Of a stretch of 64,000 nt of DNA, positions 35,254-61,715 are shown one piece after another (position 1 is the first letter of the stretch; each line of letters opens with the position of its first letter). Both the position numbers and the translations under genes were made by a program. This stretch comes from Styela clava. Lineage: Eukaryota. The notes below the pieces were generated by a model. The model saw nothing but the letters and a program-made list of their open reading frames with translations. It did no database searches and was not told where the DNA came from. Location of the stretch: positions 7,812,001-7,876,000 of the forward strand of contig NC_135262.1 of NCBI RefSeq assembly GCF_964204865.1, in the 5' to 3' direction.

Positions 35254-37589
35254 ATGAAGCTCTTCATTGCCTTTTTACTCACACTTGGTGGTAAGTGTCT
35301 AAATTTTAATGACGATTTCTGATTTTATAACGTTCTTCACTAACTGGCAAATGCAGAACTATTCTTCCTATCCGAATCTAATATAATGCTTGACATGACA
35401 GAGATACCTGCATGTCAAAACTGCACGATATCAACATCACAATGACGTTATACCATTCGATGACGTCATTTCTTAAAATTTCGAACTCTCGACATTTGAT
35501 AATAAGAATGTAAATCTCTCGAGCTCACAATGATGAATTTTTTCCACTCAATTAGTTGAAGGGTCAATTTTGAGTTAGTTTTTTATTGTTGTTGAATATT
35601 GGTTATAACGGTTCTCAAAGTTGCCAACAACGATAATATCAATATTTCTGGAATGAAAAAGCAGAAACCTGGGTTCACGTAGTTTCTTCAATGATACTTT
35701 ACCGTTACATGAGCCATGTTAATTGCTTTTAGTGGCAAATGCTGACAAGATTGTGGGGGGATCAGAAGTGGGTGGCCCCATTTCCTATCAAGTAAGAATT
35801 GCTTATGATACGGGAGGCATTCGATGCGGAGGAACTCTGATATCCAACCAATGGGTGTTGAGCGCCGCCCACTGCAAAGGACTCCTGTAAGTTGTCCTTT
35901 TTTTACTGTGAAAATACATTTATTGATTGCGGTGATCTCACGACTTGATAAATTTTTGTTGTCCATGACGTGAAAAGTCGCGTCTCCCCTTACCTTATGA
36001 AACAAGTTATTTTAATTTATCGGTGTTTGGAGTTCCCAGAACGCTACTACTTCTAATTTTTGATAGCTTCGGGATTCGATATTTTATTCTAAATTTTCTT
36101 ATTTTTATATTCAACTGGCGCACTCAATTCTCGTAACATTCGGCTTGAATTTGGGGCAATATTAGTCATATAAACATCGTTACCTTGGTATATGAAGCGA
36201 TTTTCTGCGTTACGCATTACAATAAAAATCCAGAATTAAGCTGAGGTGATTTAGGATACAATAACGTGCCGTAAATATATAATTAAAAAAATTCAGACAA
36301 ACCTGGGAGAGCTGGGTTCTTCATTTCGGCTACTACAATCCTACAACGATAGGTGTCACTCGCACAGTCATTCAACAAACCTGGAATCCGGATTACAACT
36401 CGCAAACTGTAGATAACGACGTTATGGTATTGAAAATAGATTCTGCTGTTGACTTGTCAAACCCGAGCGTTGTGTACTACGCTCTTCTTCCAGAACAATC
36501 CAGTTCCCTCACCAGTCCTGCAATCGGTAGTCCATGCAAAGTGAGCGGTTGGGGAACAACAAAAGCTGACGGAGGTAAGTGCGATTTCATGATTTTTACT
36601 TCCATTCAAATAAAAAAAATTCTGATTACTGCATTTCTCATAAAAACGTTTGCCTTAAATTAAAGCTTCTTCGAATGCAAATGAATAGTACATAGGATTG
36701 ATTGTTTAGAATAACTTCATGTTTACTTGCTTTGTTATAGACACATCACCAAATTTACTTGAGGTTACCGTGTACGTTGTCAGCAATGAGGATTGTAGCA
36801 ATAAATACTCCAGATACGGCGGTGTGACTTCCGGAATGATGTGCTTGGCCGACAGCGGCAAAGATGCCTGCCAGGTAAAACTAATTTAATATTTCTGATG
36901 CTTAGTAATGGTTTAAACGTATATCCGAAGTCTGTGTGTGCAATATGTTTTGCTGTTCGAGGTAAAAAAAAAGGCATCTGAATCACAAGCGCTCAGGAAG
37001 GCTTTTGATGTATAGCAATTATAACATACCAAAGTATCTGACCAATTTTTGAATCGAAACATAAGGGTTCGATTTAACTTCATCAAATAATTGAATATAT
37101 AAAATATTATATATTGAATGACCTCTTGCATTAAAAAATCCTGCAAAATATCATTCAGACCAGAACTGTTTTCAAAGCGTCGTTTTTCGAGGAATTCAAA
37201 ACATCTCACATTCCTCCAAACTTTGATCCAGACAAAACTTTTCATTTATTCACGCGCAGTATTTTTTTTAAATTAGTATTTTTGTATTACATTCTGGATA
37301 AGATAACTGGTAAGTATGAAATAGTGGCCGAATTTACTTTTTGGTTTAAGGGTATGTCAAACTGTTTGCGGATTAACTATTATATTTGTTGAATCAGTAT
37401 TCATTATTATTATATTTCAACCAATAGGGTGATTCTGGTGGACCGGCGTTTTGTGGAGGCAGACTGGAGGGAATCGTCTCTTGGGGAGTTGGATGTGCTG
37501 ATAGTCGTTATCCCGGCGTATACACTCGTGTCTCCAAGTATGTCGACTGGATCTTGCAGCAAACTGGACCATTGCCAACTGCATACTAA
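35254..37589 (+). CDS. Trypsin(ogen) A, secreted S1A serine protease. Exons approx. 35254-35290, 35733-35886, 36297-36574, 36741-36874, 37428-37589
   Basis: Signal peptide [16 protein letters not shown], then DK/IVGG; SAAHC (His), DNDVMVL (Asp), GKDACQGDSGGP (S1 Asp and catalytic Ser), [15 protein letters not shown]. Confidence 0.92.
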
Positions 37590-38747
37590 AACGAGTTTTC
37601 CAGCACCGTTTTAATTGGTTTATTTTCAATTGAAAACTAATAAGATTGTATACCAATAAAAGTTAATTTAATAAACTCGAATATGAAAAATATAATGCCT
37701 CTGATGCTCTTGAATGGGGTTACATAGAGAACAAGAAAGCAATGCTCAAATGCAAGAAATACTTAAGTCCAACGACGAACCGTCGTACCGGTGGTTTATG
37801 CGACTTCCATTGTAATCCGTTACCCAATCTCTATCAAAAAACGTTTAGTTTGCTATGTAATTGCGTCATTATTGACAAACATAAAGTCTCCCCCCTGGAA
37901 CGAGCATAGAATTCTCGGACAACTTTTTTTACGATTTGTCTTTCTAATTCATCTGGACGGGATCCGTGCTTTCGAAAATAGCTCTTCTATTTGGTATGCA
38001 TATTCAAATTTTCACGGGGATCACTTCAAACATGGATTATCGAATACGGGTGTACGCAAAACTTTTTTTGTCATATTTAATAACATAAATAGTTCTGATA
38101 ACAATTTTTAATAAAAATGAGTGGAAACAATACTGCAGTTTGTCGACGGGGCATTGCAACATCACGACTGCGTGATGAAAAACTGCGTACCAGTATTGGG
38201 TAGAGGTTCAAAAAGCCCGAGTCGCAAGTCACGTGTCATCCCAGTCAAATTCGAGTTCGATTTCGAGTCGAATCATTGGGCTACGTCTTACTAGCGATTA
38301 ATTGAGTGTGAGTCCGAGTCATTTTATTGAGATTACTCCAGTCACGTCGAGTCTTTGATAAATTTAGTGTATTTTGAGAAAATTCTGCGTTCTCCTATTC
38401 AAACATCATGTTCTCGCGATCGTGACCTCTGAGGAACGCGACTGATAATAAAATACTGGTGTTTAGTAACTAAGTGCGTAGCTTGTGGGGCTGAACAGAA
38501 TCGTTAATTTTCAGAACGTAAGTTAACAATAGTTAGGGTACGGGTTATTTAACCTATTACTAAACTTGGCGTGTGGAATCTGCAGTCTATATAAGAATGA
38601 TATACATTATTGACGCTACATTATCGCGAAATACCAAGAAATTAGAAGCTAAAATTGATGGATGATTTCCAAAACATTCACCCATGGTAAAATTAAAAAG
38701 CTTGCTGTAAAGTTTACAATTAAAAAAATTAGGCCGACGGTTTACGA

Positions 38748-39945: not shown

Positions 39946-42821
39946 ATGAAAATTTTTGCTGTGTTTATGTTCTTAATTTCAGGTAGGAAATATATTTTTC
40001 AAATAGCGTTGTTTTTCACCGATTACAGTTCCAAAATGTAGTTTACTCATAATTAGATCACTTCAGCTCTTTTGAGAATATTTTTCTGTAAAAGTGTTAC
40101 CACGGAATGCTGCTGTATAAATTCATATTACTTTCTTTTTAGCCACTCATGCTGACAAGATTGTTGGGGGGACAGACGCGAGAGGACCAATCTCATACCA
40201 AGTACGACTCCAGTATGAGACAGGTAGCATTCGATGTGGGGGAACACTTATCCATCAAAATTGGGTTATGTCTGCTGCCCATTGTCAAGGAAGGTAATTG
40301 ACAATATTTATTCATCTTACGTAGTCAGTTCTGCAAGAGCCCACAAATTAAACAAACATTTAATCTGAAATGCGAGTCGCTCGTTTGTATGTACATTTTT
40401 TTTATGCGAATACAAGCATTATAAATGCAGATTTCTGGATGCCGTTTAAGTAGTCTGTGTGCTTCATATCCTATGTTTTATTTTGGATGGAAAAATATGA
40501 AAATGAAATACAAAAAGTTGAAAACGCAAATTATGATAAACAAATAACTTATGAAAAGATTTGTAAAGTCTACGGAAAGAGAAATCTATAAAGGCAACTG
40601 GAATAACAATTTTATGTTTTTCTGAAGTCGATTTTTATCACGGTGAAAGAAAGTTGTGGTATTTTATAATAAATATGTGTGGTATATTGAAAGTATATCT
40701 CCGGATTTTCAAAATCGCAGAGGTTTGATTATTAGAAAAAAAATAAAGGTAATGAACACACACATTATTCCGGATTATCAGAATACACGCTTGTTAACGA
40801 CAGCAAAAGATTTAGGTATCTTTAATGTTTTACTGAATAATCCACGTCAATAACGATATATTTTACTTTTTCGTACAATTTTTATTCAATAGACCAAACG
40901 AATGGAGTACTTGGAAGTTAGCATTTGGTTATTACGACGGGCTTCATGAAGGAGTTCATATACATGAAATAGCAGATCAAATTGCCCATCCAGAATACAA
41001 CTCCGGTACTACCGACAATGACGTTATGGTACTGAAAACGCACGGAACCGTTTTACTTTCCAATTCTGTTCAAGTCGCTGCCCTTCCTATGCACTATGAA
41101 GGACTTGACCTACCTGAATACGGATCTCCTTGCATTGTTAGTGGATGGGGAACTACCTCATCAGGAGGAAGTGAGTAAGAGTTTTTGCTTCATGCACATA
41201 ATGTAGTGAATCGTAAAAATACACCCAATAATGTATTTCGGTATTTCCACTGTTTTTTTTTATCATATAATTTAAAAAAAAACTCGACTCAACAACATTG
41301 AACCTTGTTAAAATAAGTATAAATTAAATGTGTGGTTTTCCAGTTCTTATTTATACCCTCGAATCAATACTACGCGAAATTAAAGTCTTTCAATGAAATG
41401 TATATAAAGGGATAAAATATTTATAACTTTTCAATTAATAATTCTATATTGTTACAGCTGTGTCAAAATATCTACAAGAGGTGACCGTATACGTCGTTCC
41501 AAATGCGGAATGTAACATTCCTTACACCGGCTCAATTACGACTGGAATGATGTGCCTTGAAGCTCCCGGAAAAGATTCGTGTCAGGTTTATATAAAATAT
41601 TTATCGATTTGATTTGTAAATTACGGTGTCTCCAAAATGTCGTGTCCCACGTGTACGTGTCCCACTTGTACCACGTGTCCTACTTGTTCCACGTGTCCCA
41701 CTGTACCACGTGGTACAAGAGGGATAAGTGGGACACGTGGGACAAGTGGGCAAGTATGACACGTGGGACAAGTGGGACACGACATTTTGGAGACACCCTG
41801 AAAATTATATAATATACACTAATATTTGTAATAAGGAGGTATTCTAAATATCACGTTCCAATATTGCCAATATTTTCATATCTTTTTGAAATAATCAGAG
41901 TATAGTTATTGATCCACTCATACATTGGCAATACAGATCGAATAAACATTTCAACGAGATAGCGATCAGAGACCGCCAACTTATCGATCTAGCGGCGTAT
42001 ATCTTTCGCTTTGGCTTAATAGCGACACCGCGTGTCCCATCACTAATTAATCAATAACTCGCCAATTATACGACCTAATTCATCCAAAATCGATAGGCTT
42101 CCGAGATATGATGAATGCACATGTAAAAATTGGAGCAGATTCAACTTCGCCTTCGTGGGATATTGCGTGTATCTAACAGACACACAAACAAACAGACAAA
42201 TACCTATCAACGTACAAGATCAAGATCGATAAGTAATCACAGGCTTGAACGGCGCAACTATACAGCGGCACGAAAAATACCAATTAAAAACAAAATAGCA
42301 ACACTCAAATATATGGACACCACGCCTGAATGAATAATATGGTCATCACAACGTCATAATTACTTCTGATCAAATGTTATGAGAATTGTGCCGAGATTCT
42401 GATAGAGTTATACTCAAGAGTTCATCAAAAATATATTGAAAATCCGAAATCTATTGGCCCGCTGGTTCCAATAAAAAACTACAACAATTTAGCAAAAACA
42501 CCGATACGAGCCAAACGCAAGGTTACTTGGCCAAGTCTAAACAAAGCGCAATATCCTCGCTGTTTACTTTTAATTAATATTTGAGTGACGTCGCGTTAGT
42601 AACGCATAAGATGGCATTCTCTTTCCGCCACACACGATATACTGACAGACTTTATTTAAATTTTACAGGGAGATTCTGGCGGCCCAGCTTTATGTGGCAA
42701 CACTGTTTCCGGTATTGTATCTTGGGGAATTGGATGTGCGTTAGACAGATTTCCTGGGGTATACACGCGTGTATCTCGCTACGTGAACTGGATTGTGGAA
42801 AATACAGATATTACAATGTAG
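39946..42821 (+). CDS. Trypsin(ogen) B, tandem paralogue. Exons approx. 39946-39982, 40143-40293, 40893-41170, 41458-41585, 42669-42821
   Basis: [22 protein letters not shown]; SAAHC; DNDVMVL; GKDSCQGDSGGP; [15 protein letters not shown]. Same intron positions as trypsin A. Confidence 0.92.
41625..41797. mobile_element. Foldback MITE made of inverted arrays of 9-10-bp subrepeats
   Basis: ggtgtctccaaaatgtcgtgtcccac ... gtgggacacgacattttggagacacc, with internal (gtgtcccac/ttgtcccac)n mirrored by (gtgggacac/gtgggacaa)n. Confidence 0.85.
41953..42237 (-). mobile_element. Helentron-associated (DINE-1/HINE-like) element, copy 2
   Basis: Reverse complement of 9602-9910 (gtgtcccatcactaattaat, ggagcagattcaa, acaaacaaacagacaaatacctatcaac, atcgataagtaat). 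Confidence 0.7.
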
Positions 42822-45593: not shown

Positions 45594-48500
45594 ATGAGGC
45601 TGTTAGAAATACACTCAAACTATCTTGCTGTGATTGTGTTTGCTCAGATTCTATACGTCATGATCGAAGTTGGAGCTCAACATCAAAAAGTTTGGTCCGG
45701 TAACTACTAATTACATATTTGAATAAGTTTGATTGTGGGTATAGGCCAGTTTGTATACTTTAAAGAGAAAAGAAGTTCAATGTTTTATAATTTCGGTTTC
45801 TATTCGACGTTGATACTTTAATAGAAACTGCCTATTGACATGCTGTATTGCTGTGGAAGGGACTGTATTATGCAACTGTCGAACTGTGTATTACTATAAA
45901 AAATTTACTTGCAGATGAAGAAGAAACCGTTGAATTCTGGAATAAAAAAGCCCAAGATGATCTGGCCTTGGCTCTACAGAGAAATGAATTCTATGACGGG
46001 GTGGCACAGAACGTCATATTGTTTCTTGGTAACAAATATAACTAACTCGATTTCGGAAAAATAGTGCAAAGCTTCGCGATCTTCAAGTTTTTTTTTATAA
46101 ACATTTTGTCGCTAAAATTGTGTATATAAATCATAATAAAAATTTATATATGTACTGTATTCCGATTCGAAATTTCAATGTCGCTTTTCAATTTAGGCGA
46201 CGGAATGGGAATACCAACTATTACAGCTGGTCGAATTTTGAAAGGCCAGCTGAATGGCCAACTTGGGGAAGAATATGAACTTTCCATAGACAAATTTCCA
46301 AACGTAGGTTTATCCAAGGTATGTGTTAGCTTTACTAGTCATTTGTATCCGAAGTCTTGCCAGTTACTACGATTTAACTCGGAACCGTTATGCAGGCACG
46401 AGGGTATTGTTGCGTAAACAAGTGTTTGTATTCAAAACAGTAGTGGTTTGTCCATATTTGTTTTGCCGAAATAAAATACGATACTCGACAAGGCATTATT
46501 GGACACGTAGTGAACATAACGATCGTTTCAAAATTTTGTTGTTATTGTTATTTGTCTCCATCATTTTTAAAAAAATCGCTTTTCTCTTCGAATACTGGAC
46601 CAATTGCTTTGAAATTTTCAGTGGTTGAAGATAAAATTTTTCCCCAGAAGGCTATTACTTTTATTCATTTTAAATATTTCTGTTAGCTCTGTGAGATTTG
46701 TTTTTGTTTGCTATGACGTCATTAAACGAACTGCGGACATCGGACGCCATTTTGTGTCCTACTGTACTGCTTCGCTTGGTGTGAATATATTTGTAGACTG
46801 TGATCTGACGGTACGGTAAACCGTACTGTACTGCGAACAGACGTGTTGGGCGTAGCTCTCTTGTTAGTCATCATAAACACGTTGGATACTAGATACATTT
46901 TTTCCGCGTGGCATGTTTTTCTACGTAAATTCCGTAACATATCCTTTTTTTAAATGCAATTCATTCAATATTGCATTATTGTGTTCGGCTTACTTGGACT
47001 ACATGTATTATAGTGAAAATTGGTTTGCAGCCTGGCGCACATAATCCTGGTATTAAAAGCGCCATTACTTATAATAATAATATATGCACACATGGTAAAG
47101 ACACTTCATTCGACTATAAACAAAAGGCCCAACTGCGCTCTTAGTCGTATCGAAACCACAAATTGACGTCCTCAAATGCCAGCTAAACTATATACGCTAT
47201 GCCATCTTGTACAAAAACATACAACTGTATGTTTCAGTAACTATTCTACAGATTTACATTCATTTTTGTGTTCATTTCTTATTAGATCAGAGTCTGCAAC
47301 TTCACTTTTGAGTGAGTTTGCTTGCTTGATGTTTGTTTTACTTCTAATTTGTATTTTTAGACTTACTCAATAGATAGACAAACTACGGACTCCGCCGCGA
47401 CTGCGACGGCTTTTTTGTGTGGTATCAAATCTACCTGGGGAACTCTTGGTTTAGCCGGGAAAGCAAGAATGGGTGTTTGTGAGTCTGCAACAGGACAAGA
47501 AGTAAATTCAATCCTAATAGATGCGTACAATCAAGGTTTGTTGCTTTGTTGAATTTTAATTCTCGGCGCTCCAGAAGTTTGTGTACCAATATGGAGGTAA
47601 CTAACTTTGTTCGCCTACTTTACATCAAGTTGTGCTGGGGACTGAAACCTATGGGCAAGGGGTATATTCACTTAGCTAACACAGACAATCCCCGAACTCG
47701 TAATAAAACTAAAATAAGGAAAATCGGAACGCCAGCCAGCTCACTATATATATCCAATGTTTATTTCACTCACCTGAGATAAGTAGGCATGGCATCCTTT
47801 GCTAAATTTGTTCAAGTCAAGTTCCCAACTGCGTTGAATTTCCAACCGCATAAGTAGAGGATTTACGGACTAAAGAGACCTCGTAACCAGTTGAAACGCT
47901 ACCATTAGAAATACTGTATACAAGCTTTGTTATATATCTTGGAATGGCAAAAACCTTATCGTTGTAACTGTGCAACTTGAGTGCAAGTGTTGGCACGTTT
48001 TGATGACTACTCCTGTATCATAAACTAATTAGTACACGTATTTCATTCAACATTTGATTGCTGCATTTCCAGGAAAGTCTACCGGCATTGTTACAACCAC
48101 GCACCTCGTACACGCTACTCCAGCGGGTGCGTATGCTCATACGCCAGAACGAAACTGGTACAGTGACGCACAGTTGACGCAAAATGCGATCGACGGAGGT
48201 TGTACAGATATAGCCAAACAGTTCTATGAAAACTCTCATCAGATTACGGTATGTGAAGTAACAGGTGCAATGTTTTAGAATACTAATATTCGACCTGTTC
48301 ATTTTTATATCGAGATTGCCTTCCGGAACTTAAAACCTAAATAGGTTTAATATACTTCCATATGCAGGTTGCTCTTGGTGGTGGTAGGAAATATTTTCGG
48401 CCGAATAATATGCCTGATGTCGGGTATCCACAACATAACGGAACACGGCTTGATGGGAGAAATTTTGTGGAGGAATGGCTAGGAGACGCTGGTTCAGAAA

Positions 48501-51500
48501 GTAGAAGTTTTGTTTGGAATAAGCAACAGCTTGAAAAAGTGCAACCAGATTCAACGGACAGATTGTGGGGTAGGTAACGTTCCCCCAATATATCCTATAG
48601 GTATCAATAAATCATTTATTTTGGTTCTCTGACATAAACAATACAAAAAGTAAACAGACAAACAAAATGCAGAAATACCTGGGAGCTGGGAGACGGGCAT
48701 AACTTAAAAAATGTTAAAAAGTGTACAATGTACGTGCCCGCCCACCAAAAAGAACAAAACAAACATAGAAAGATTGTAGGGCACTCCTGAAGTATGCGCA
48801 CCAAGATGTCGTATAACCTGAACCTTAACCTGGTACACAACCAGATTTCAGGTTGTGCGCCATCTTGTTGTGCATACTTCAGGAGGTCCGATTGTAGAGT
48901 TGAAATGTGTCGAGCTTTAAAGATTCGCTCATCCCGGAAAACCTCGCTGAAACTGCTACACTTGAAGGCTTGATTTATGACAAATTTCCTTTGCTGTACG
49001 AACAACTTGGTATGGATGGTTGTCGATTCAGATTAAATTGTCAGTCAGATTAAATTAAGCGAATGTGTCAGATACAAACATACGTTTGAGCCTACTTCAT
49101 AAATTCAAGTAGGAGCGAGCTTGTAGTTTTCGATCTATCCCATCTTGCACTTAAAACTGACTTTATTTTGAACCTTGAACCAATAAATTAGCCTATGGTG
49201 ATAATAACGTTGTCATTTGTTAGCCCAATGCCTAATTCCATGGAGATTAGAAAAGTCTCGATAAGTGAATAGACAATTTTTTTATAAATTCCCAAAATTT
49301 AAAACTGTTTGCAGGCATGTTCCAGCCGAGTCATATGAATTTCGAAATCGATCGCAATTCAACAAACGAGCCGAGTATTTCTGAGATGGTGGAGAAGGCT
49401 ATCCAAATACTAGGCAAAAATCCAAATGGATATTTCTTGCTTGTAGAAGGGGGGCGAATCGGTATGTGTGTTGGAATTTTTCATTCCACCTCATCCCATA
49501 TTTAAAAAAAATATACTTTTTCATTTTTTTGTGTAGATCACGGTCACCACGACAGCAGCGCCATTGAGGTTCTACACGATATGGTTGCATTTGACGACGC
49601 AGTCGACAAAGCAACAGAAATGACTTCAGAATTGGATACTTTGATTGTCGTGACGGCAGATCATAGTCATACAATGAGTTTAGGAGGTTATGCTTTACGA
49701 GGAACCTCTGTTTTTGGTATGTATACATTTCGTGTGTCTAAAGTACAGAGATCAAGTTAATGTGTAATATTGAGTGTCCCGTTTCTTATATTTGCTGCTT
49801 AATTTCAGCTACAAGGTGTCGCTGACTAGATGACTCTATGAGTCTTTTCGCGACTCCGCGTAGAGTTCGCATTATTTGAGACCGCACGTAGAGTTCGCAT
49901 TATTTGAGACCTATATTATGAATTCCTATTCTACAGCTGTGAAACATGGAGTGGCGGAAAAAGTTCCGATTGCTCGAGATAAGAGAAAAGCTGTCAACAT
50001 GGCCATACCCAGACCTCATTGTTTACAAATGAAGTTCGAAAGAAATCATCCGGATGTGTTGGAAAAGGGACTGCGAGCGACAGCGAAAAATATTGTACTA
50101 AAAGGCGTTACAACTAAGCAAATCGTTAGTATAGCAGTAAGACCGTACCATACAGTCGATGTCACATGCCGCACTAGAGCAGAGATACTAACACTGGATA
50201 AATACCTGAAACAGCAAAATATAGCTGGATTTAAATGGTTTTTATACGTTGAAGAAAATACAACAGTGAATATATCATGGATTCCAGGGCATATTAAAAA
50301 ACAGCAACTTCGTTCTACATTGTTAGAATTTGTAAAAGAGTTGGATTCTGACATCCAGGAAGCAAAGGATGAAGATGGCATTTTAAATGGATGGATGTAT
50401 GTATCAGTGCCTACAAACCAAATTCAGCAACATCCCATACCAAGTTTCATCTATGTAGAAGGGTGCATGATATCTGTTAAATATCGCGGGCAGCAACAAA
50501 CATGTATGAAGTGTAATGAAGTTGGACACTTTAAATTCGAATGCCCAAAGCAAAATAGATTTATAAACCCTTTGAAAAAGCAAGACAGATTCACCGACAA
50601 ACAAACATTGATAAGAATAAATGATAAAACACAAAGTGAAGGATTGACCACTGATTACAATGATGAAAATGCAGTCAAGCGTGACCACCATAACAATGCT
50701 GATAACAGTACTCCAAGTGTTTTCACTTTAGCAGATTTTATGCCAACTACAGACGAACCTAATTCAAATGATGACAAAAGTGCTGGGTCGAACGATCGTG
50801 ACTTGGAGACTTCAAATACACCAATGGAGGTCAATGAACAATCTGGAGTTAAAAGATGTAGATCGCCTGATCAGAAAAAACATTTGGCAAATATTAGGCC
50901 AAGACTGGATAGCGTAAACGACATTGATATACCAAAATGTATTGTATGCGAAGACCAACTTGAAATAATGGACGACAACGCTAAAGAAGCTATCTGCTAC
51001 AACTGTGAAATCAGGTATGCCACTTACACCTTGTTGTAATGGTATTGGTGAAATATTGGAAAATGATGTTGCTAGGTGTACCACTTGTGAAAATTTATTT
51101 CTGAAGTGTTGTTGCTCTGCTTTGAACACCCTACCAGTGGAGAATGGTTTCGATAAATGCCATAGCGTAGGCTGTGGTAGCTACATAATGCATTGTCCTT
51201 GTGGTAGCGTTTCGTATACCGATGAATCTTTAGAATGCAGATGTGGAAATACTCTAAATGGCTGATATTAAATTGAAAATAGCCTCTTTAAATACAGGAG
51301 GTATACGAGAATATTCAAAAAGACGAGAAATTTTTTTGTTATTGAAGAAGAAGGGATTTAATCTTGTCTTCCTACAAGAAACACATAGCAAACAGAATGA
51401 CGAGAAACAATGGCTGAGAGAATGGGGTGGTTCTGGAATTTTTTGTAATTACTCGACCAATTCAAGAGGTTTGTGTATTCTATTCGGAAACAATATTTCA

Positions 51501-54500
51501 TTCTCACTGCACACTCAACATAATGATCCTCAAGGAAGATTTCTCGTGGCCGACATAACTATCGGTGTTGAAAGACTTATTCTGGCAAATATGTATGGAC
51601 CAAATAACGATAATCCTAATTGTTTTTTGGAACTACTTCATACTCTTGAGAGCCAACAGAGCCAGCAATTCATAGTTGGAGGTGACTTCAATGTAGTCCT
51701 TGACAGTAAAATGGATAAAGTGGGCGGCCGAATAAACCATAAAAATAATAAATCAGGACAGATGTTGCATAATATTATGGAAGAACTGAATTTACAAGAT
51801 TCCTTTAGAGTAATAAATCCAAGCAAGAAAGCATACTCCCATTTTCATAAACAATCAAAAACTGCCACCCGAATTGATATGGTGCTAATTTCTCAACATT
51901 TATTGCAATATCAGTGCAAAGCCGATATTATACCTTGTGTTTTGTCTGACCATTCTATAGCATCGTTAATGATTGATATCAATCCTGTCCCCAGAGGTAC
52001 CGGATACTGGAAGCTGAACACTTCCTTGTTAAATGATGAGAAATATGTTACTCAAATTAGACAAGTAATCCAAAATACCATAATGGACCACAGCATGGAA
52101 TACGTTGATCCAAATTTTATGTGGGATACAATGAAATTAATAATTCGTGGGGAATCAATAGCCTATGCAAGTAGGAGAAAAAAGCTGTGTGAAAAAAAGA
52201 TGAAAGATCTTGAAATATTAATATCTTCGCTAGAAACCAAGTATGCCAGTCACCAATCTGATGACAATATGCAACAACTGGAAATTGCAAAGCAGTCTCT
52301 AAATGAATTGTTGAAGCAAAAAACTCGTGGCTACCTGATTAGAAGTAAAATTAAATGGGCTGAAGAAGGGGAACATAATACAAAATATTTTTTCGGTCTT
52401 GAAAAGAGGCATAAACAAAGGACATCTATTGCACAACTGTATGAAAATGATAGAATAATCTCAGATCAAGAACAAATATTGAAATGTATCAAATTATTTT
52501 ATACAGAATTATACTCGGAAACATCATCACATAATGTTGATATAGAAGAAATATTGCAAGGGATCGATATACCACACATGGAACCTGAAGTTTCAGACCT
52601 ATGTCCTGGTGTTATCACAGAAGGTGCTTGTTTCGAGGCTTTGAAATCCATGAAATCTGACAAAACACCCGGGCTTGATGGTCTTCCAGCAGAGTTTTAT
52701 AAGGTGTTTTGGAAGGATATCAAACATCTTTTGATGGCTAGCTACAATCATTCATTTTGTAAAGGGACTTTAAGCAAAACACAGAAAAGAGGATTAATAA
52801 CTCTTCTTCCTAAGAAAGGACAAACTGAACATTGTATAAGCAATTATCGCCCAATAACTTTATTAAACGTGGACTATAAAATACTGAGCAAAACATTAAC
52901 AAACCAAATGAGTAATGTAATCAACGAAATTGTTGATCTTGATCAAACTGGATTTATTAAGGGGAGGAATATAGGGGATAATATTCGACTGATTTGTGAT
53001 GTGATTGACATAACCGTTGCTGAATCATTGCCTGGGGCTTTAATTTTCCTTGATATACAAAAAGCATATGATAGTGTGAAATGGGATTTCTTGTTCAAAA
53101 TTCTTCATATATTTGGATTTGATCTTAAATTCATAAAATGGGTTAAAATCCTTTACAATGATATACAGTGTTGTGTTACAAACAATGGTCATATTTCAAA
53201 TGATTTTGTAGTCCATAGAGGCCTAAGGCAAGGTGATTCTTTCAGTTGTCTTACATTTTTACTGGTAATTGAAATTTTTGCAAACATGGTCAGGCAAAAC
53301 CCAAAAATTGAACCCATAAAATGGAGGGATATTTCTATAAAAATTTCTATGCTTGCTGATGATGTGACAGTAATGACCAATGGATCAAAATCTAGTATTG
53401 ATGCCCTTTTTCAAACTTCAAACATTTTTGGGATTATATCTGGGTGCAAAATTAATATAGCAAAATGTCAAGCAATGTATATTGGCACTAAGATTGGAAC
53501 CTCCCCGATTAGTAGTGAATATGGTCTGAATTGGAACGATGAAATTAAAATATTGGGTGTTATTCTGTCAAACAAAATGGAGGGTATATACAGCAAAAAT
53601 TTTCCTCAAATATTAGATAAAGTCAAAAAGCTACTTCAGGTGTGGAAAACAAGAAATTTGACGTTTTTGGGAAGGGTTTGCATTATTAAGTCTCTCATTC
53701 TACCCCAGATATTATACCATGCAACTGTTTTACCAATCGATGTTTCTGAAAATTTTTTGACTGAATTGAATAGAAATATATATGTTTTTATATGGGGTTC
53801 AACTTGGGAGCGGATCAAACGAAATACATTGATTGGCCCCAAAGAAAAGGGAGGTGTTGATATGTGTTACGTTGTAAACGTACGTTTGTCGTATATTTTG
53901 CCACTGTATGCAGTGCATCGTGCTCTGCCTTGCATCCAATCATTGTAGACTCATTATTACCCTTTGTTTGTAGCGTAAATTAGTATTATTATCTATTGTC
54001 TGGTTTAGCGTTTTCCTTTCGGTCATTTGCATCACGTATTCGTCGTGTAAAGAGTCGCAGATATTTGTCTGTATTGTGGACTGTTTATTTATTTGTTATA
54101 TATTGTAATTGTATTAGCCTCCCGGATCGGAAAACGTTTGGTGAGAAATTTGCCTTTTGTTGTTGTTATATGCTTTGACTTATGTTAATCAATTTTGTTT
54201 TATTTTATTTAAGAAAACCGCCGTTCTTTGCCAAGAATATAAAGAAGTGATTTATGCACGTGTCTTGTTTGTGGACAAAGGGGCTGAGAGTGGCGCGTTC
54301 GATACGTTTTCATTGTGTCTCGTCGATATAGATTCCGGGCTATCAAAAGACGTGACATAAAAGTTTTCAAACGTGCTTCAAAATTCAAACGATTTCAAGT
54401 CCCCAAACATAATTTGTGAAGTTTTCAATGATATTAACGTTAATACCAAAATTCTCAAGTTTTCAACCAAAGGGTTTCAAACATTAATTCGGGTTCTCGA

Positions 54501-57500
54501 TAATGGCAACCGGTGGTAGGTCGGATGACCAACATCAGGCAATGATTAGCAATGCTCCTGGCAGTTTTAATGAATTTAAAACTCATCTAGATGTTTGCAG
54601 GAGTTCCAGTGACGTTAGCGACGTGGGTTCTTCAGCGTCATCGACTTTCTCCGTCCGGAATGCAAGAGTGAAGTTGGAGCTGGCACGCCTAAAGGCCCGT
54701 CAAGAAGAAGAACTCTCAGCTTTAGAAGACGACTTGCGTAAGCTTCGGACAAGACACGCTTTACAGGCTGCTGAAACAGAATCAAAGGTTTGGGAAATGA
54801 GCGATGACAAATTTTTGCGGTGGGTAACAGTAGATAGAATTAGGCACGACAATAGCGTGAAAACCCGTGATTTCCCACCTAAATCCCAGCTCATTGATAA
54901 CGGTCGTGAAAATACTCCACGACGTTTGCCTACACACACAGCTGATAGTAGCTCAGCTAATCCTGTGCCTCCACGTTTGAACCATGCTTTACATCGCAGA
55001 ACTGTCGATCTACCCAAACCGGAAATTGCAAAATTTTCAGGTGATCCAATGGAATATTATTCCTTTATCCGCAACTTTAAGGCCCATGTTACAGATCTTG
55101 TAGATGATGATAACGTACGTCTCAGTTATTTGTTACAGCTGTGCCAGGGCGAAGCGAAAAATGCCATTGATCATTGCTCAATGATGGAACCGAGTCGCGG
55201 ATATCGCGAAGCTATGAGAGAGCTGAAGAATGAATATGGTAAAGATCATGTCATTTCCCGCACCTGTTTGGACAGGTTGAAGCGTGGTCCGAAGTTGAAC
55301 TTTGACGACGCGAAAGGTATGCAAGCGTATGCGCGTCTGATGCGGAAATGTGGCTTAGTTCTTGGAGAAATCAGTGAGTACGACAATCTTAATAATTTTG
55401 ACAATTTGCTGGCCATTGTTAAACGATTGCCACCAGAGTCGCAAAACGCTTGGGATTTCAAAGTGGCAACAATTTTAGAAACGGAGGATCGTGAAGCTAG
55501 TTACAACGACCTCTCTAAATTTGTCACCGAGCAAGCTAATGTTTCAAGATCAGACTTTCGTTTTGCCCGAAGAGATAGAAGGCAATCAAATTATTATGAA
55601 AATTCTAAGGCGAAAGGTAGTGCTTTTGCTATTTCTGCTAGTGGTTCAAATTGGCACTGCCCGTGTTGTAATTTCTCTCACGAATTATTCAACTGTAAGA
55701 AATTTAAAGTCCTTTCATGGTACGAACGATATAACGTGGCTAGACGGAATCAGTTGTGCTTCAAATGCTTAAGACGAGGGCATATGTTTAGACAGTGCAC
55801 CCAGAATGAAAGTTGCCCCATTCACGATTGTAAGTATCCGTTCCATCATGTTTTGTTGCATCGCGATTTCGAGACACCTACACGGCGAGATGGTATTAGT
55901 AAACAGATTTGTTCCGTCGGTACCTCGATGAACCATGCGGATCACGACGTTCACGCTAATAAATTGGCGCCCGCAAAGCAACAAGGGAACACCGGTGTTT
56001 ACATGAATATCGTCCCGGTGACAGTAACTGCTGGCAACAGGGCTTTTGATACATACGCTCTTTTGGACTGTGCTTCTACAACCACCATGTGTAGTGTGAA
56101 ATTGATGAACAAATTAAATCTAACCGGGGTGCCTATAGATGTTACATTGCAAACTGTTGGTAATCGCCCCAAATGTGTTAAAGCAAAGAAGTTGTCCCCT
56201 CTACTCGTTAAAGAAATTGACGGACATGACGATTGCATTGAATTGCCCAATGTATTGTGCGTGAGTAACTTGCCCATAAAGCCCAATAAGCTACCCTCGC
56301 GCAGTTCCTTGCGTAAGCTATCCTATTTGTCTGATATCGACTTTCCTCGAATACACGACGGTGAAGTGACTTTGCTGATAGGAGCGGATGTTCCCGAAGT
56401 GTTTGTGTGGGAGGAATTTAGAAAGGGTCGGAGTCAACAGCCGATTGCGGTGAAAACCCCTCTGGGTTGGTCTCTTATGGGTCCGTCTCTGACCGTCTAT
56501 GAAAACACTTCCATTAATTTCGTTGATACAAATCCTTTGGCGTCGCAGATTGAGCGACTTTGGCGTACGGATTTTGCTGACGTCCCCAGTATTTGTGACA
56601 CTAAAACTTCAAAACTTCCCGCGAAGATAGAATAGCGCGTAGTTGCATGGAAGACAAACTCAAATTTGTTGATGGACATTACGAACTACCTTTATTGTGG
56701 AAAACCAATCATCGCGAGTTACCATGTAATCAGAAAGTGGCGGAGAATCGCCTTCGTCAGTTACAGCGACGTCTTTTCAAAGATGACACATTGCACCAAA
56801 AATATATTCAGACATTGAATGATTATGTTGATAAAGGATACGCTCGTATAGCTGACAGTCCTAGGTCGCCGAACATCTATCCAACAAAATGGTTATTGCC
56901 ACATCATCCTGTGATAAACCCAAAGAGCCAGACGACTTCATTGACGCATTGAGACGCTTTACTGGACGCAGAGGTCGTCCTGTTCACATATATTGCGACA
57001 ATGGAAGCAATTTTGTAGGTGCTTGTCGCGAATTGAAAGAATCAATTAGCAAATGGAACGAGCAAAGTATTGCAAACCATCTGCGTCAACGTGACGTAGA
57101 ATTTAACTTTAATCCTCCATACGCCAGTCATACGGGTGGCGTTTTTGAAAGAATGATTAAATCAACTAAACGAATTCTATCTGTATTGTTGACAGGTCAA
57201 TCGATTACTCATGAGAAGTTGGAGACACTACTAGTTGAAGTGGAATCGATACTGAATTCCAGACCGATAACTCCAGTGATAATGGACCACTCAGCTGATG
57301 AACCGTTGACGCCCAACCATCTACTACTTGTTGTTTCGTCACCAAATGTATCACCAGGTGTATTCACGAAGCGTGATTGCTACGTTCGACAGCGATGGCG
57401 CCAGGTACAATATCTGGCAGATGAATTCTGGCGTCGATGGATAAAAGAGTACCTGCCAACAATAACACGAAGGTCGAAATGGACGAAAGGACGTGATAAC

Positions 57501-60500
57501 TTCAAAGTCGACGATATGGTTCTGCTAGTTGATGAATCGATTCCTCGCGGTCGATGGACTGTTGGAAGGGTTATAAATACCTTCCCAGACAAACATGGAC
57601 TCGTCCGCTCAGTGTTGGTGAGAACCGGCACGAATGTTGTCAGACGACCCATTACTAAACTATGTCGATTTCTAGAAGACCAAAAATAGTCCATCGAATT
57701 ATTGTTTCATTTACAACGTTTAATTTTTTTTTTAGAATATATTCCCTGGGTCATATATTCGGGTGGGGGTATGTTACGTTGTAAACGTACGTTTGTCGTA
57801 TATTTTGCCACTGTATGCAGTGCATCGTGCTCTGCCTTGCATCCAATCATTGTAGACTCATTATTACCCTTTGTTTGTAGCGTAAATTAGTATTATTATC
57901 TATTGTCTGGTTTAGCGTTTTCCTTTCGGTCATTTGCATCACGTATTCGTCGTGTAAAGAGTCGCAGATATTTGTCTGTATTGTGGACTGTTTATTTATT
58001 TGTTATATATTGTAATTGTATTAGCCTCCCGGATCGGAAAACGTTTGGTGAGAAATTTGCCTTTTGTTGTTGTTATATGCTTTGACTTATGTTAATCAAT
58101 TTTGTTTTATTTTATTTAAGAAAACCGCCGTTCTTTGCCAAGAATATAAAGAAGTGATTTATGCACGTGTCTTGTTTGTGGACAAAGGGGCTGAGAGTGG
58201 CGCGTTCGATACGTTTTCATTGTGTCTCGTCGATATAGATTCCGGGCTATCAAAAGACGTGACAATATGATAGATATAAAAAATTTTATTGTTGCCCAAA
58301 AAATTAAATTCATTCAAACACTCTTGAATGAGGAAGTTAATCCAGTGTGGAAATTGATTGAGATGGAAGTGCTTAGCCAATACTGTTTTCAAGCATTGCT
58401 TGAAGGAAAATTGAGCTCAAATTCATATGTTCTGAAGCATTTACCTTTAACATCCATACGAAATGTATTTAAAAACTGGTATTTCTGTAAAAATGTGCTT
58501 TTTGATTGGAAAATGTCAAATTTTGATCAACCTATATGGTACAACAAAAGTATTTCTTATGCCAGAAAACAATTTTTTATAAAGTCTTGGTATGATCATG
58601 GTATAAAAGCTGTAAGACATTTAGCAAATGTGGGTAATTTGTTTACTTATAGAGAGTTGACTGAAAAATATGGCATGCAATATAGTGATGAAGAGTATGT
58701 GAATTATTATCGCATCACTGGAGTTCTACCCGATTATTGGTTATGCAATATTGGAAACTGTGTTGATTTTAGTGTAATAAGTGACACTGAAGAGAATGTA
58801 TGTCATTTTATTTCTGAAACATTCGAATCAGGAAAAGTAAATAAAAGCATCTATAAAAAGTTGAACCTTATCAAATTTATATCCCCTGATAAATCAAGAA
58901 AAAAATGGACAGATCTTTTGTATTTAGAGAGTGATTTTAATTGGAATAAATTGTATATGGATATCTTTTATTGTACTATTGAAACTAAATTGCAATCTTT
59001 TCATGTAAAGCTATTTCATGGTGCCATAGTACTAAACGATAGATTGTATAAATTTAAACTTGTTTCATCAGAGTTATGTGATTTCTGTCATTCGAATGTT
59101 GAAACTACTGACCATTTCTTCTATGATTGTATAGTTGTCCAACAGTTTTGGGAATTTCTGAACATGTGGATATATTCAAAAACAGGGATTAATTTTAACT
59201 TTTCAAAAAAAGATTGCATGTTGGGATATGTTTGCCAATTCTATAACAAATTGTGTAATTGTATACTTCTTACTGCCCGGTTTTATCTATATCGTTGTAA
59301 GATACAGAAAAAGAAACCACTGTTCTATGTTTTTACCTCATATCTTCATGAAGTGAGGGAAATTGAGCGGTTCATTGCACATAAAAATGGCAAAATAAAG
59401 AAACATTATCAAAAATGGAAAATTTTAGGATATACACACAATAATTGATTATTTTTATATGATGAATTGTGATTATGTAGTTTCTATGAATATTGATTAA
59501 TAATGCTGTAGATATTGTAGATGTATCGATTAACTGTGTTTTATATAATAATAAATATATATAAAAAAAAAAAAAAAAAAAAAAAAAAGACTCCGCGTCA
59601 ACTGCAACAAGCCGATATCCATTTGACATTTTGTTACATTATGTTATTTATTCATTTTTCATATCGCGTATTGTTTTTTGCATGACGAAAATAAATATCT
59701 GAATCTGAATCTGAGATCAATTAAACAAACCAGATAGAATTGCGGATAAAGATGGGAATCTCATCAGTCGACTTTACTGAAATCAAAACTCAAGTCAAAA
59801 CTATTGACTTCGTCAAATTTTCTTGTTTTCGCTCTTGCTGATAATGTAAAAAAAAATTTCAATTGTATACAATCTACAAAACTAGTACCGTTTACTAGTA
59901 TTCTTTGCTCTCAGTTCGCCGACGTGGGTATAATAATTATATTGGCTGTCAATTTGCGGAATACAGAAATAATAGTTGATTAAAATAAAAATGTGGATTG
60001 TCATCGCAGATCATGTATCTCAACGAGTTATTTTCTTACATTTCAGAGTTTTACCAATTTGAATAAATCAGCGATTCGCTACGTTTCTTGGTCGATCTAC
60101 AAAGAATGATTCGAAACCTTACTAATATCCTCGTTTTGGGGTTGAAAAATCCAAGCCATTGCAATATCGAAAATATCTTATTTATGTCAGGTTTAGCAGA
60201 CCAGATTGAAGTGGAAATGATAGACACAAAGCCAGCTACTTCGATTTTGTATGGCGATGGCCCAGGTTACTTAGGAGAAGGAACCCTGAATGTTGTTCAA
60301 ATAAATCCAAACGAAAAATTTGAGCGGGAGAATATTACACTTGTCGACACAGGTAAGATCAGTTCAAATTTAGATGAAGTTTAGTAATAACGGTGGCAGA
60401 GAATTCCCATCTAACAGATTAAAGATTTATCAAACGTACTTCGACTTTCTCTGAGGTTGTATAAAAGCTGCTAATCACCTGCTTTACTGGTAAACATTAC

Positions 60501-61715
60501 CGATCTATTCGCTGAAAAAATAGATATTTATAAACCAGAAAAATCCATCACAAGCCACGCAAAAATTCATGCCTTATAAAGTAGGAAATCAGTCAATTTA
60601 GCAGTTAATGCAACGTTTATTATTTCAGCCGGAAGGACATACCGGCAGCAATCCGCGGTTCCCAGAACTTCAGAGTCGCATGCAGGAGACGATGTTCCTA
60701 TTTATGCCAGAGGACCAATGGCTCATCTTTTTCACGGAGTTCACGAACAGAATTATATTGCACACGTGATGAGGTAATTTGTATTGGTATTAAAATGAAA
60801 TTGGAATTATGAATAAAATATCGATGATGAAATATTGTATATCTTATCTGATCAATAGACAGAATATAATATGATAAAATTATAATTTTATAATTCTGTT
60901 CAATCACATTGAAAACTTTTATACGAGTTGCTTTGCAGTTATTTTCTCTTAAGAATACTTTAAATCAGGGGTCCTAGCATTGTGTTGTTTTTAGAGACTT
61001 GAATCGTTGGATGATTAGCTCAAACCAATATAGCTAACTATTCGAAGCCTAAATTTCTGGTTCATGTTGAGCTAAACATACAGCGGCAACATCGATAACA
61101 TTTAGGCAAATCGAAGGGTTCATTCGATACCTTCAGAAATAAAAAACATCAATATCTTTAAATATATTCCTCACAAACGATGAACTATAGTACAATCTCT
61201 TACTTGAACGGAGACTCGGAGAGAGAGTTATGTATATTTAGGATCTTTTCAGATTCCCTCCATTTATAATATTACAAATTGCAAAAATTTATACGCAATG
61301 GACAGAACCATTCTCCGAGACCCTACTCCCACTGCCAAAATGAGAATATGGACAACTATTGAGTGACGTAATATACAGATTCATAATTCAGTTAATTTGT
61401 CACCTTGCGATTGAAAAATTTACTTTAAAGGGATACTGTAGATAAGAAGCCTCAAGAAATCAGACCATTCAGATATATTATGAAACAGTATACTTTTTCT
61501 TCAGATATGCTTCCTGCCTGGATGCTGACAAAGCTCATTGTGCTCCGAAAACCGACGGAACCGGACCTTACGTTCATTTTCTTTCGTTGAATCTAACAAA
61601 ATTGCAAGCTCGCTTCGCTCTATACTTTATGTTTGCGTTGTTGATTTGCTCCGCTTTAGTTTTGATTTTCCTAACTTATTTGTTTTTGGCAAGGAAATTC
61701 AGAAATCGAAAATAG
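45594..61715 (+). CDS. Alkaline phosphatase. Exons approx. 45594-45699, 45914-46028, 46198-46318, 47361-47535, 48073-48248, 48368-48572, 49315-49461, 49537-49716, 60191-60352, 60629-60772, 61505-61715 (alternative in-frame ATG at 45570)
   Basis: [23 protein letters not shown] (catalytic Ser), [44 protein letters not shown] and [11 protein letters not shown]. The C-terminus is hydrophobic and followed by RKFRNRK*. Confidence 0.92.
46535..46830 (+). repeat. Dispersed repeat in an ALP intron, related to 43195-43640
   Basis: Shares long near-identical blocks with 43195-43640. Confidence 0.7.
47569..47730 (+). mobile_element. Partial copy of the CTCC-AAGTA MITE family
   Basis: ctccagaagtttgtgtaccaatatggaggtaactaac... 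is collinear with 10293-10455. Confidence 0.75.
48784..48885. mobile_element. 102-bp palindromic mini-member of the CTCC-AAGTA MITE family
   Basis: ctcctgaagtatgcgcaccaagatg ... catcttgttgtgcatacttcaggag. Confidence 0.8.
49918..51265 (+). CDS. LINE ORF1 (CCHC zinc knuckle, Cys-rich C-terminus) with an apparent +1 frameshift near 51015-51025
   Basis: [22 protein letters not shown] knuckle. The CxxC pattern at the end of ORF 49876-51039 continues in ORF 51005-51265, whose stop overlaps the ORF2 ATG (ATGGCTGA). Confidence 0.8.
51258..53864 (+). CDS. LINE ORF2, 5' segment (APE endonuclease and reverse transcriptase)
   Basis: SLNTGG, FLQETH, GGDFN, RIDM, SDH; [39 protein letters not shown]. Interrupted after GGVDM. 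Confidence 0.93.
53865..54357 (+). repeat. 5' LTR (493 bp)
   Basis: tgttacgttg...gacgtgaca; appears identical to 57772-58264. Confidence 0.95.
54503..56635 (+). CDS. BEL/Pao Gag and aspartic protease
   Basis: [13 protein letters not shown], three Cys/His knuckles ([43 protein letters not shown]), [17 protein letters not shown] and [10 protein letters not shown]. Confidence 0.9.
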   Translation: MATGGRSDDQHQAMISNAPGSFNEFKTHLDVCRSSSDVSDVGSSASSTFSVRNARVKLELARLKARQEEELSALEDDLRKLRTRHALQAAETESKVWEMSDDKFLRWVTVDRIRHDNSVKTRDFPPKSQLIDNGRENTPRRLPTHTADSSSANPVPPRLNHALHRRTVDLPKPEIAKFSGDPMEYYSFIRNFKAHVTDLVDDDNVRLSYLLQLCQGEAKNAIDHCSMMEPSRGYREAMRELKNEYGKDHVISRTCLDRLKRGPKLNFDDAKGMQAYARLMRKCGLVLGEISEYDNLNNFDNLLAIVKRLPPESQNAWDFKVATILETEDREASYNDLSKFVTEQANVSRSDFRFARRDRRQSNYYENSKAKGSAFAISASGSNWHCPCCNFSHELFNCKKFKVLSWYERYNVARRNQLCFKCLRRGHMFRQCTQNESCPIHDCKYPFHHVLLHRDFETPTRRDGISKQICSVGTSMNHADHDVHANKLAPAKQQGNTGVYMNIVPVTVTAGNRAFDTYALLDCASTTTMCSVKLMNKLNLTGVPIDVTLQTVGNRPKCVKAKKLSPLLVKEIDGHDDCIELPNVLCVSNLPIKPNKLPSRSSLRKLSYLSDIDFPRIHDGEVTLLIGADVPEVFVWEEFRKGRSQQPIAVKTPLGWSLMGPSLTVYENTSINFVDTNPLASQIERLWRTDFADVPSICDTKTSKLPAKIE
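56619..57689 (+). pseudogene. Disrupted BEL/Pao pol: pre-RT segment fused out of frame to the C-terminal half of integrase
   Basis: GHYELPLLW...[10 protein letters not shown] jumps directly to [15 protein letters not shown]...DNGSNF...GGVFERMI...LNSRP...LTPNHLL...[10 protein letters not shown]...RPITKLC. RT, RNase H and the integrase N-terminus are absent. Confidence 0.88.
57772..58264 (+). repeat. 3' LTR (493 bp)
   Basis: Direct repeat of the 5' LTR; ORF-track peptides from both copies are identical. Confidence 0.95.
58270..59448 (+). CDS. LINE ORF2, 3' segment (zf-RVT-type C-terminal zinc finger)
   Basis: Continues in frame from 53864 (GGVDM/IDIKNF); QPIWYNK; [18 protein letters not shown]; ends YQKWKI...*. 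Confidence 0.92.
   Translation: MDIKNFIVAQKIKFIQTLLNEEVNPVWKLIEMEVLSQYCFQALLEGKLSSNSYVLKHLPLTSIRNVFKNWYFCKNVLFDWKMSNFDQPIWYNKSISYARKQFFIKSWYDHGIKAVRHLANVGNLFTYRELTEKYGMQYSDEEYVNYYRITGVLPDYWLCNIGNCVDFSVISDTEENVCHFISETFESGKVNKSIYKKLNLIKFISPDKSRKKWTDLLYLESDFNWNKLYMDIFYCTIETKLQSFHVKLFHGAIVLNDRLYKFKLVSSELCDFCHSNVETTDHFFYDCIVVQQFWEFLNMWIYSKTGINFNFSKKDCMLGYVCQFYNKLCNCILLTARFYLYRCKIQKKKPLFYVFTSYLHEVREIERFIAHKNGKIKKHYQKWKILGYTHNN

What the first reader, a model, noticed from the sequence alone, without database searches (positions are those of the whole stretch)
49748..59724. Three-tier nested retroelement stack inside one alkaline phosphatase intron
Seen: a BEL/Pao element (TSD ATATG) interrupts LINE ORF2. 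Removing it restores GGVDM-IDIKNF and a continuous 1261-codon ORF2. The LINE has a perfect 10-bp TSD and poly(A) tail. Removing the LINE as well shrinks the 10,474-bp intron to about 737 bp and rejoins a short element ending AATAAA-(ATCTGA)3. The insertion order can therefore be read directly, and the two inner events look very recent.
Basis: seen in the sequence. Interest (0 to 1): 0.7.

Follow-up and report, generated by a model that had tools for sequence, protein, structure and literature searches.

The report
Polymorphic triple retrotransposon stack in intron
Three jumping genes sit one inside another in an intron of an alkaline phosphatase gene, and a sequenced sample also carries a version of the intron with none of them, so all three likely landed recently on one chromosome copy; this is a clean but ordinary case of nested insertion.

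Summary
The nest is real. A BEL/Pao LTR element (53865-58264, LTRs 493/493 identical, target duplication ATATG) splits ORF2 of an L1-clade LINE (49862-59588, duplication GACTCCGCGT, A26 tail). That LINE splits a 220-bp outer element with its own duplication (GAGATCAA). Uninterrupted siblings in the genome confirm each empty site.

(2) The LINE also has a 101-bp frameshifting deletion in ORF1. (3) The LTR element lacks about 2.23 kb including reverse transcriptase, a deletion shared by 8 other loci, so it likely moved in trans. (4) Contigs from two runs of one sample join the flanks over a single GAGATCAA. The alternative allele therefore lacks all three elements (509-bp intron, not 737), and the whole 9,965-bp stack is polymorphic.

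The host gene model is intact. Splicing across the filled intron was not tested. Best reading: three ordinary sequential insertions on one haplotype. Nested elements are a known kind, and other young LTR copies here are also interrupted. No earlier scan note that I saw describes this stack on other DNA. Interest is low.

The parts
45594..61715 (+). Host alkaline phosphatase gene model, 11 exons (45594-45699, 45915-46028, 46197-46318, 47361-47535, 48073-48248, 48368-48569, 49315-49461, 49537-49716, 60191-60352, 60629-60773, 61505-61715), about 579 aa; first exon predicted only
   Evidence: PF00245 exon hits. All 10 introns GT..AG and frame open for the 576 codons sliced; three more codons and TAG read. 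Last two introns spliced in contigs of run X5, guessed RNA.
49717..60190 (+). Intron 8, 10,474 bp; 509 bp without the stack; the other nine introns are 75-1042 bp
49748..49755 (+). Left copy of the outer target-site duplication GAGATCAA
   Evidence: an X1 contig ends at 49755
49756..49861 (+). Outer element, 5' part: 3' UTR of a 5'-truncated CR1/L2-group LINE; its last 10 bases are the LINE's left duplication
49862..49883 (+). 22-nt duplicate of the middle LINE's own 5' sequence at the junction, absent from sibling L046
49918..51039 (+). Middle LINE ORF1 (CCHC knuckle), cut to 374 aa by a 101-bp deletion near 51015 between imperfect 8-nt repeats
51258..53864 (+). Middle LINE ORF2, 5' piece (AP endonuclease and RT)
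53865..54357 (+). 5' LTR of the BEL/Pao element (493 bp)
54488..57689 (+). BEL/Pao coding region in three frames (DUF1759 ... DUF5641); about 2.23 kb holding RT and Peptidase_A17 is missing near 56931
57772..58264 (+). 3' LTR, identical to the 5' LTR, preceded by a G-rich polypurine tract
58265..59448 (+). Right ATATG copy, then middle LINE ORF2 3' piece (zf-RVT)
59563..59598 (+). A26 tail and right copy of the LINE duplication GACTCCGCGT
59599..59712 (+). Outer element, 3' part, ending AATAAA and a short ATCTGA repeat
59713..59720 (+). Right copy of the outer duplication; empty-allele contigs join here to 49747

Best explanation
Three retroelements from three young families sit nested in intron 8 of an intact alkaline phosphatase gene, an allele without any of them exists in a sequenced sample, and they likely inserted one after another on a single haplotype. 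Shown: the nesting order, three target-site duplications, uninterrupted siblings for each layer, and the empty allele. Inferred: (1) a CR1/L2-group LINE was reverse-transcribed at a nick and stopped after 220 nt, leaving an 8-bp duplication; (2) an L1-clade LINE inserted into that stub by target-primed reverse transcription, with template switches giving the 22-nt 5' duplicate and probably the 101-bp ORF1 deletion; (3) an RT-less BEL/Pao derivative, mobilised in trans by longer family members, integrated into the LINE's ORF2 with a 5-bp duplication. The stack likely persists because it is intronic and both splice sites are untouched, and because later hits into a dead stub cost little. Its effect on host splicing is untested.
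For: Duplications at all three levels match single copies in siblings. Relative ages fit the order: the outer stub differs by 2/220 from its closest siblings, and both changes are unique in a genome pattern search; the LINE differs by 4 substitutions in about 5.27 kb from L046 (Fisher p = 0.02 against the stub); the LTRs differ by 0/493. The RT deletion junction is exact in 8 of 15 other loci checked; four of those have distinct 5-bp duplications and near-identical LTRs; 3 loci carry the extra 2228-2232 nt and a fourth continues into it. Empty allele: a 1275-nt X2 contig aligns 59713-60076 without differences and continues upstream into 49718-49747; X1 shows the same 22-nt loose end. The 3' intron flank is single-copy in the assembly. 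The LINE/outer 3' junction string occurs once in the genome. Two other young LTR copies (LTRs 0 and 1 mismatch) carry later 2.2-2.5 kb insertions.
Against: For these particular families the chance of such hits is small: about 0.4-1.4% for a young LINE landing in the outer family and about 0.15% for an LTR copy landing in the young LINEs (rough, assumed copy numbers, post hoc). 0 of 70 other fetched records held two of the three families. All three elements face the same way as the host gene. No listed read or contig bridges the two inner junction pairs; the only filled-allele contig listed at a junction is 56 nt at the outer 3' end, under the tool's 31-letters-per-side bar. X1 and X2 are one sample, possibly the assembly's source.
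Confidence: 0.85

Rival explanations
1. Co-mobilisation: the nest was built at another locus inside a CR1/L2-group LINE's 3' UTR and was copied here as one roughly 10-kb, 5'-truncated retrocopy by that LINE's machinery.
For: It would explain three rare events on one polymorphic haplotype, the common orientation, and the fact that only a fully empty and a fully filled allele were seen.
Against: No donor in the assembly: the 3' junction string is unique, the LINE 5' motif occurs only here and in L046, and other LTR copies have other duplications. The transcript would have to read through the LINE's poly(A) signal and two LTRs (inference). Only one informative sample was seen, so missing intermediates mean little.
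Confidence: 0.05
2. A true insertion hot spot: the first insertion or this intron's chromatin attracts further integrations, so the nest is not chance.
For: Low family-wise chance figures. In human, TEs insert about 4-fold more into existing TEs, with positional hot spots (PMC2836564, abstract only).
Against: Siblings of the middle LINE share no target sequence and none sits in the outer family. LTR-family duplications differ. One case cannot show a bias.
Confidence: 0.07
3. Assembly chimera of repeat copies, or an empty allele made by deletion between the outer duplications rather than being ancestral.
For: Inner junctions are not bridged by any listed record. The ancestral state was not checked in an outgroup: run X9 (organism B) had no cover on the unique flank.
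Against: A mis-join would not create three correct duplications. X1 contigs break exactly at 49755, 59713 and 51016, where two forms should diverge. Precise deletion through an 8-bp repeat is rare (own knowledge).
Confidence: 0.03

Closest known systems
Nested retroposon insertions (transpositions in transpositions, TinT; PMC3014933, abstract and outline read; human nested TEs, PMC2836564, abstract and outline read)
   Same: Element-in-element insertions whose order is read from interruption and target duplications.
   Different: Here three families from three groups are all young, and the whole stack is absent from another allele; the papers' abstracts deal with reference-genome nests in primates.
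BEL/Pao LTR retrotransposons (PMC3118150, passages read)
   Same: TG..CA LTRs, 5-bp duplication, DUF1759 and DUF5641 in the window copy, RT then Peptidase_A17 then integrase in a longer sibling.
   Different: This copy belongs to an amplified RT-less deletion sub-family, and no TGG-type primer site follows the 5' LTR, unlike the tRNA-Tyr site of the BEL/Pao element Achilles (PMC4580426, passages read). Superfamily not determined.
L1 clade, diverse L1/Tx1 group (PMC5203782, passages read); nearest named hit is Ciona intestinalis Pol-like protein Q76IK4, 43% over the RT region
   Same: CCHC-knuckle ORF1; APE-RT-zf-RVT ORF2 of 1261 aa; poly(A) tail; 10-14 bp duplications.
   Different: No target-sequence specificity among the copies seen; ORF1 has an extra Cys-rich C-terminal part that this copy has lost.
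CR1/L2-group LINEs (clade label recalled, from no call)
   Same: APE-RT ORF2 of 989 aa without zf-RVT, short tandem-repeat tail, variable 5' truncation, hundreds of candidate copies.
   Different: Only 220 nt of an 867-nt 3' UTR is present here; the clade (CR1, L2, Crack, Daphne) was not resolved.

Membership tests
BEL/Pao LTR retrotransposon | Two LTRs bounded by TG..CA, short target duplication, polypurine tract | tested here: met
   493-bp identical LTRs, ATATG, G-rich tract
BEL/Pao LTR retrotransposon | Pao-type domains, with RT before integrase | tested here: met
   Window: PF03564 and PF18701. Longer sibling: RVT_1 (below cut-off), PF05380 E 3e-46, integrase H2C2, rve (below cut-off), in that order.
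BEL/Pao LTR retrotransposon | tRNA primer-binding site next to the 5' LTR | tested here: inconclusive
   First TGG is 146 nt downstream; 0 of 13 other loci with this end start with TGG; the genome's tRNA set was not compared.
Autonomous BEL/Pao element | Own reverse transcriptase | tested here: not met
   About 2.23 kb with RT absent and the coding region in three frames
BEL/Pao superfamily (Sinbad, Suzu, Flow, Tas etc.) | Placement on a pol tree with reference elements | not tested
   No named references were fetched
L1 clade LINE | APE-RT-zinc-finger ORF2 closest to L1 ORF2p | tested here: met
   Pfam; 345 bits to human L1 ORF2p against 57 to R2
L1 clade LINE | Poly(A) tail and variable-length target duplication | tested here: met
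   A26 and 10 bp here; duplications of 10-14 bp found at 5 other distinct loci (6 of the 16 records scanned)
Tx1 subgroup | Type I ORF1 with CCHC knuckle | tested here: inconclusive
   zf-CCHC 20.7 bits against cut-off 20.8; motif visible; consistent with PMC5203782 passages
Tx1 subgroup | Sequence-specific target (typical of many Tx1 elements; recalled) | tested here: not met
   Flanks of the young copies share no motif by eye
Tx1 subgroup | RT phylogeny with reference Tx1 elements | not tested
   No tree built
SINE (outer element) | Short non-coding unit with a tRNA or pol III head and a fixed 5' end | tested here: not met
   Siblings extend upstream into a 989-aa APE-RT ORF2 with staggered 5' ends; no tRNA in the window
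CR1/L2-group LINE (outer element) | APE-RT ORF2 without C-terminal zinc finger, tandem-repeat tail, 5' truncation | tested here: met
   only about 75 bits to L1 ORF2p or R2
CR1/L2-group LINE (outer element) | Clade placement by RT tree | not tested
   No references fetched

The most novel reading that the evidence does not exclude
The 9,965-bp stack is not chance: either a fresh LINE stub becomes a germ-line landing pad that draws two unrelated retroelements within the lifetime of one segregating allele, or the whole composite moved as a single 10-kb retrocopy.
Probability: 0.12. Interest if true: 0.5.

Novelty: new member of a known kind. Interest (0 to 1): 0.2.

Why it matters
As it stands it is a tidy marker. 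It shows that a CR1/L2-group LINE, an L1-clade LINE and an RT-less BEL/Pao derivative were all mobile in this animal within the age of one segregating allele. It also gives a natural filled/empty allele pair in which allele-specific RNA could test what a 20-fold intron expansion with sense-strand poly(A) signals does to a gene. It would matter more only if genome-wide counts showed that young insertions attract further ones, or that the composite moved as a unit.

Tried and rejected
Outer element as a SINE: rejected.

ORF1 deletion as a spliced-out intron: the lost 101 bp has GT..AG-like ends, but splicing would leave C at the junction where the window has G; a switch between the imperfect 8-nt repeats fits exactly.

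Spliced-leader tag at the middle LINE's 5' end (lead from note e1-8661607): the 21-nt motif occurs only twice here and once in L046, with no array. The genome's leader sequence itself was not compared.

Target specificity of the middle LINE: none seen. No duplication was found for L046 within about 1.2 kb upstream.

Self-priming hairpin to explain the missing TGG primer site: fold z = 0.58, 139 of 200 shuffles as good; longest leader-LTR complement 7 nt. No support.

Donor composite: none found.

Expression: no RNA holder listed on record. X5 is only guessed to be RNA; its contig has just 6 letters before exon 9, so it says nothing on the large intron, and its genotype is unknown. X16 raw reads were too thin (depth about 1 or less on unique flanks), and one search was swamped by two high-copy intronic repeats. 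X9 had no cover on the unique 3' flank.

Literature: seven searches were answered. None of the listings showed a report of this locus or of BEL/Pao primer sites without TGG; this is not proof of absence. No supplements were read.

Full report
Observation. Two 493-bp LTRs (53865-54357, 57772-58264) are identical and flanked by ATATG. Without that element the LINE ORF2 runs 1261 codons from 51258 through GGVDM-IDIKNF. This does not rest on my join alone: locus L046 on another contig is a natural copy with a 1261-aa ORF2, differing by 4 substitutions outside one deletion, and 7 of 7 other loci with the junction anchor show the empty site. The LINE spans 49862-59588 with a 26-A tail and GACTCCGCGT on both sides, a 10-mer found only twice in the window. 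The intron is 10,474 bp, or 737 bp without the two inner elements.

Host gene. PF00245 hits map a gene across the window and six further loci in the genome. An 11-exon model has GT..AG at all ten introns and an open frame of about 579 aa (576 codons, the last three and the stop read). The catalytic and metal-binding motifs expected from my own knowledge of the family are present. Other introns are 75-1042 bp. Contigs of run X5, guessed to be RNA, splice the last two introns. The host is likely a sea squirt: two of the few named hits of ORF2 are ascidian proteins and unchecked earlier notes say so.

Outer layer. The 3' half has 306 first-look candidates in the genome, 40 scored, most at 93-98%. 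The siblings join both halves over one GACTCCGCGT in 12 of 14 cases. Their 5' ends are staggered, and the longer ones run into a 989-aa APE-RT ORF2 and an ORF1. The outer element is thus the last 220 nt of an 867-nt 3' UTR of a young LINE, far from L1 (about 75 bits against 345 for the middle LINE). I label it CR1/L2 group from recalled features, without a tree. It has its own duplication GAGATCAA (49748-49755, 59713-59720).

Middle layer. This is an L1-clade LINE with a CCHC-knuckle ORF1. It has 9 matches at 99-100% including this one, mostly 5'-truncated. The window copy was not intact apart from the LTR element. It lacks 101 bp of ORF1 that L046 and two older copies keep; the deletion lies between imperfect 8-nt repeats and ends ORF1 at 374 aa. 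It also starts with a 22-nt duplicate of its own 5' sequence. Both look like template switches during reverse transcription (inference). Flanks of the siblings share no target motif.

Inner layer. DUF1759 and DUF5641 mark it as BEL/Pao. It is 4,400 bp; three longer loci hold 2228-2232 nt more at one point, and the frame across that stretch in one of them carries RT and Peptidase_A17. The deletion junction is exact in 8 of 15 other loci checked; the other 7 are longer forms or do not cover the point. Four full 4.4-kb siblings have different 5-bp duplications and LTRs with 0-1 substitutions, one pair with 3 gaps. The deleted form is therefore a sub-family that spread without its own RT. The nearest sibling differs by 4 substitutions and 1 gap.

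Empty allele. In one search an X1 contig ended at 49755, the last base of the outer duplication, which predicted a second allele. In one search a 1275-nt X2 contig aligns 59713-60076 with no differences and continues for at least 255 letters upstream; the 30 shown equal 49718-49747. X1 shows the same 22-letter loose end, plus a 56-nt contig for the filled junction. The flank is single-copy in the assembly. So the sample holds an allele with a 509-bp intron and none of the 9,965-bp stack. The two haplotypes differ at 4 sites in 59713-60800. X1 and X2 are one sample, possibly the assembly's source; whether it is one animal is not given. No listed record bridges the inner junctions.

Timing and mechanism. 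Divergence follows the nesting order: 2/220 for the stub, both changes unique in the genome search; about 0.08% for the LINE (p = 0.02 against the stub); 0/493 between LTRs (upper bound about 0.6%). The simplest account is three sequential insertions on one haplotype. Family-wise chance is low (rough), and 0 of 70 other fetched records held two of these families. But the figure is post hoc over many possible family pairs, and at least 2 of 18 distinct LTR-family loci examined carry later insertions, one with still identical LTRs. Co-mobilisation as one unit found no donor but is not excluded without intermediate alleles.

Comparison with the known. Nested retroposons and reading their order are established (PMC3014933 and PMC2836564; abstracts and outlines seen). 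BEL/Pao elements are widespread in animals (PMC3118150, passages), and CCHC-type ORF1 is described for sea-squirt and Tx1-like L1s (PMC5203782, passages). PMC554778 and PMC13524379 (passages) gave nothing on BEL/Pao primer sites; PMC4580426 (passages) shows a tRNA-Tyr site in one. No supplements were read, and they could hold primer-site tables.

Verdict: real, well supported, a new member of a known kind; interest 0.2.

Noticed in passing
window 54358-54503; 13 other loci: The BEL/Pao family has no TGG-type primer site after the 5' LTR: 12 loci read TAAAAG and 1 reads TAACAG, and the TA mirrors the TA before the 3' LTR. The primer is unknown; a self-priming hairpin got no support.
   Followed up: partly
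L012-L015, L017-L019, L074 and the window: The RT-less 4.4-kb form outnumbers the longer form among the loci checked (9 against 4); L012 shares the window's three-frame layout.
   Followed up: partly
L074:1574-3756 and L066:3236-5708: Non-coding elements with terminal inverted repeats (2.18 kb, hAT-like ends by recall, 8-bp duplication; 2.47 kb) inserted into very young LTR copies.
   Followed up: partly
window 47565-47729 and 48783-48889: Two very high-copy short repeats in other introns of the same gene, the second a 39-bp-arm hairpin; a copy of the outer LINE family (L026) appears to sit in a relative of the first.
   Followed up: no
window about 36280-37590 and 40120-42820: Exons of at least two tandem trypsin-like serine protease genes upstream of the phosphatase gene (GDSGGP and SAAHC motifs).
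   Followed up: no
L046:1139-2647: The undeleted ORF1 ends in a long Cys-rich region (many CxxC pairs) with no Pfam match.
   Followed up: no
L047/L048 and L051/L052: Two pairs of middle-LINE copies share identical flanks 43 kb and 15 kb apart, so they are segmental duplicates or assembly duplicates rather than separate insertions.
   Followed up: no
L081:3507-4802 and L049: An outer-family copy has an inverted 5' segment, and a middle-family copy may have one too, as in twin priming.
   Followed up: no
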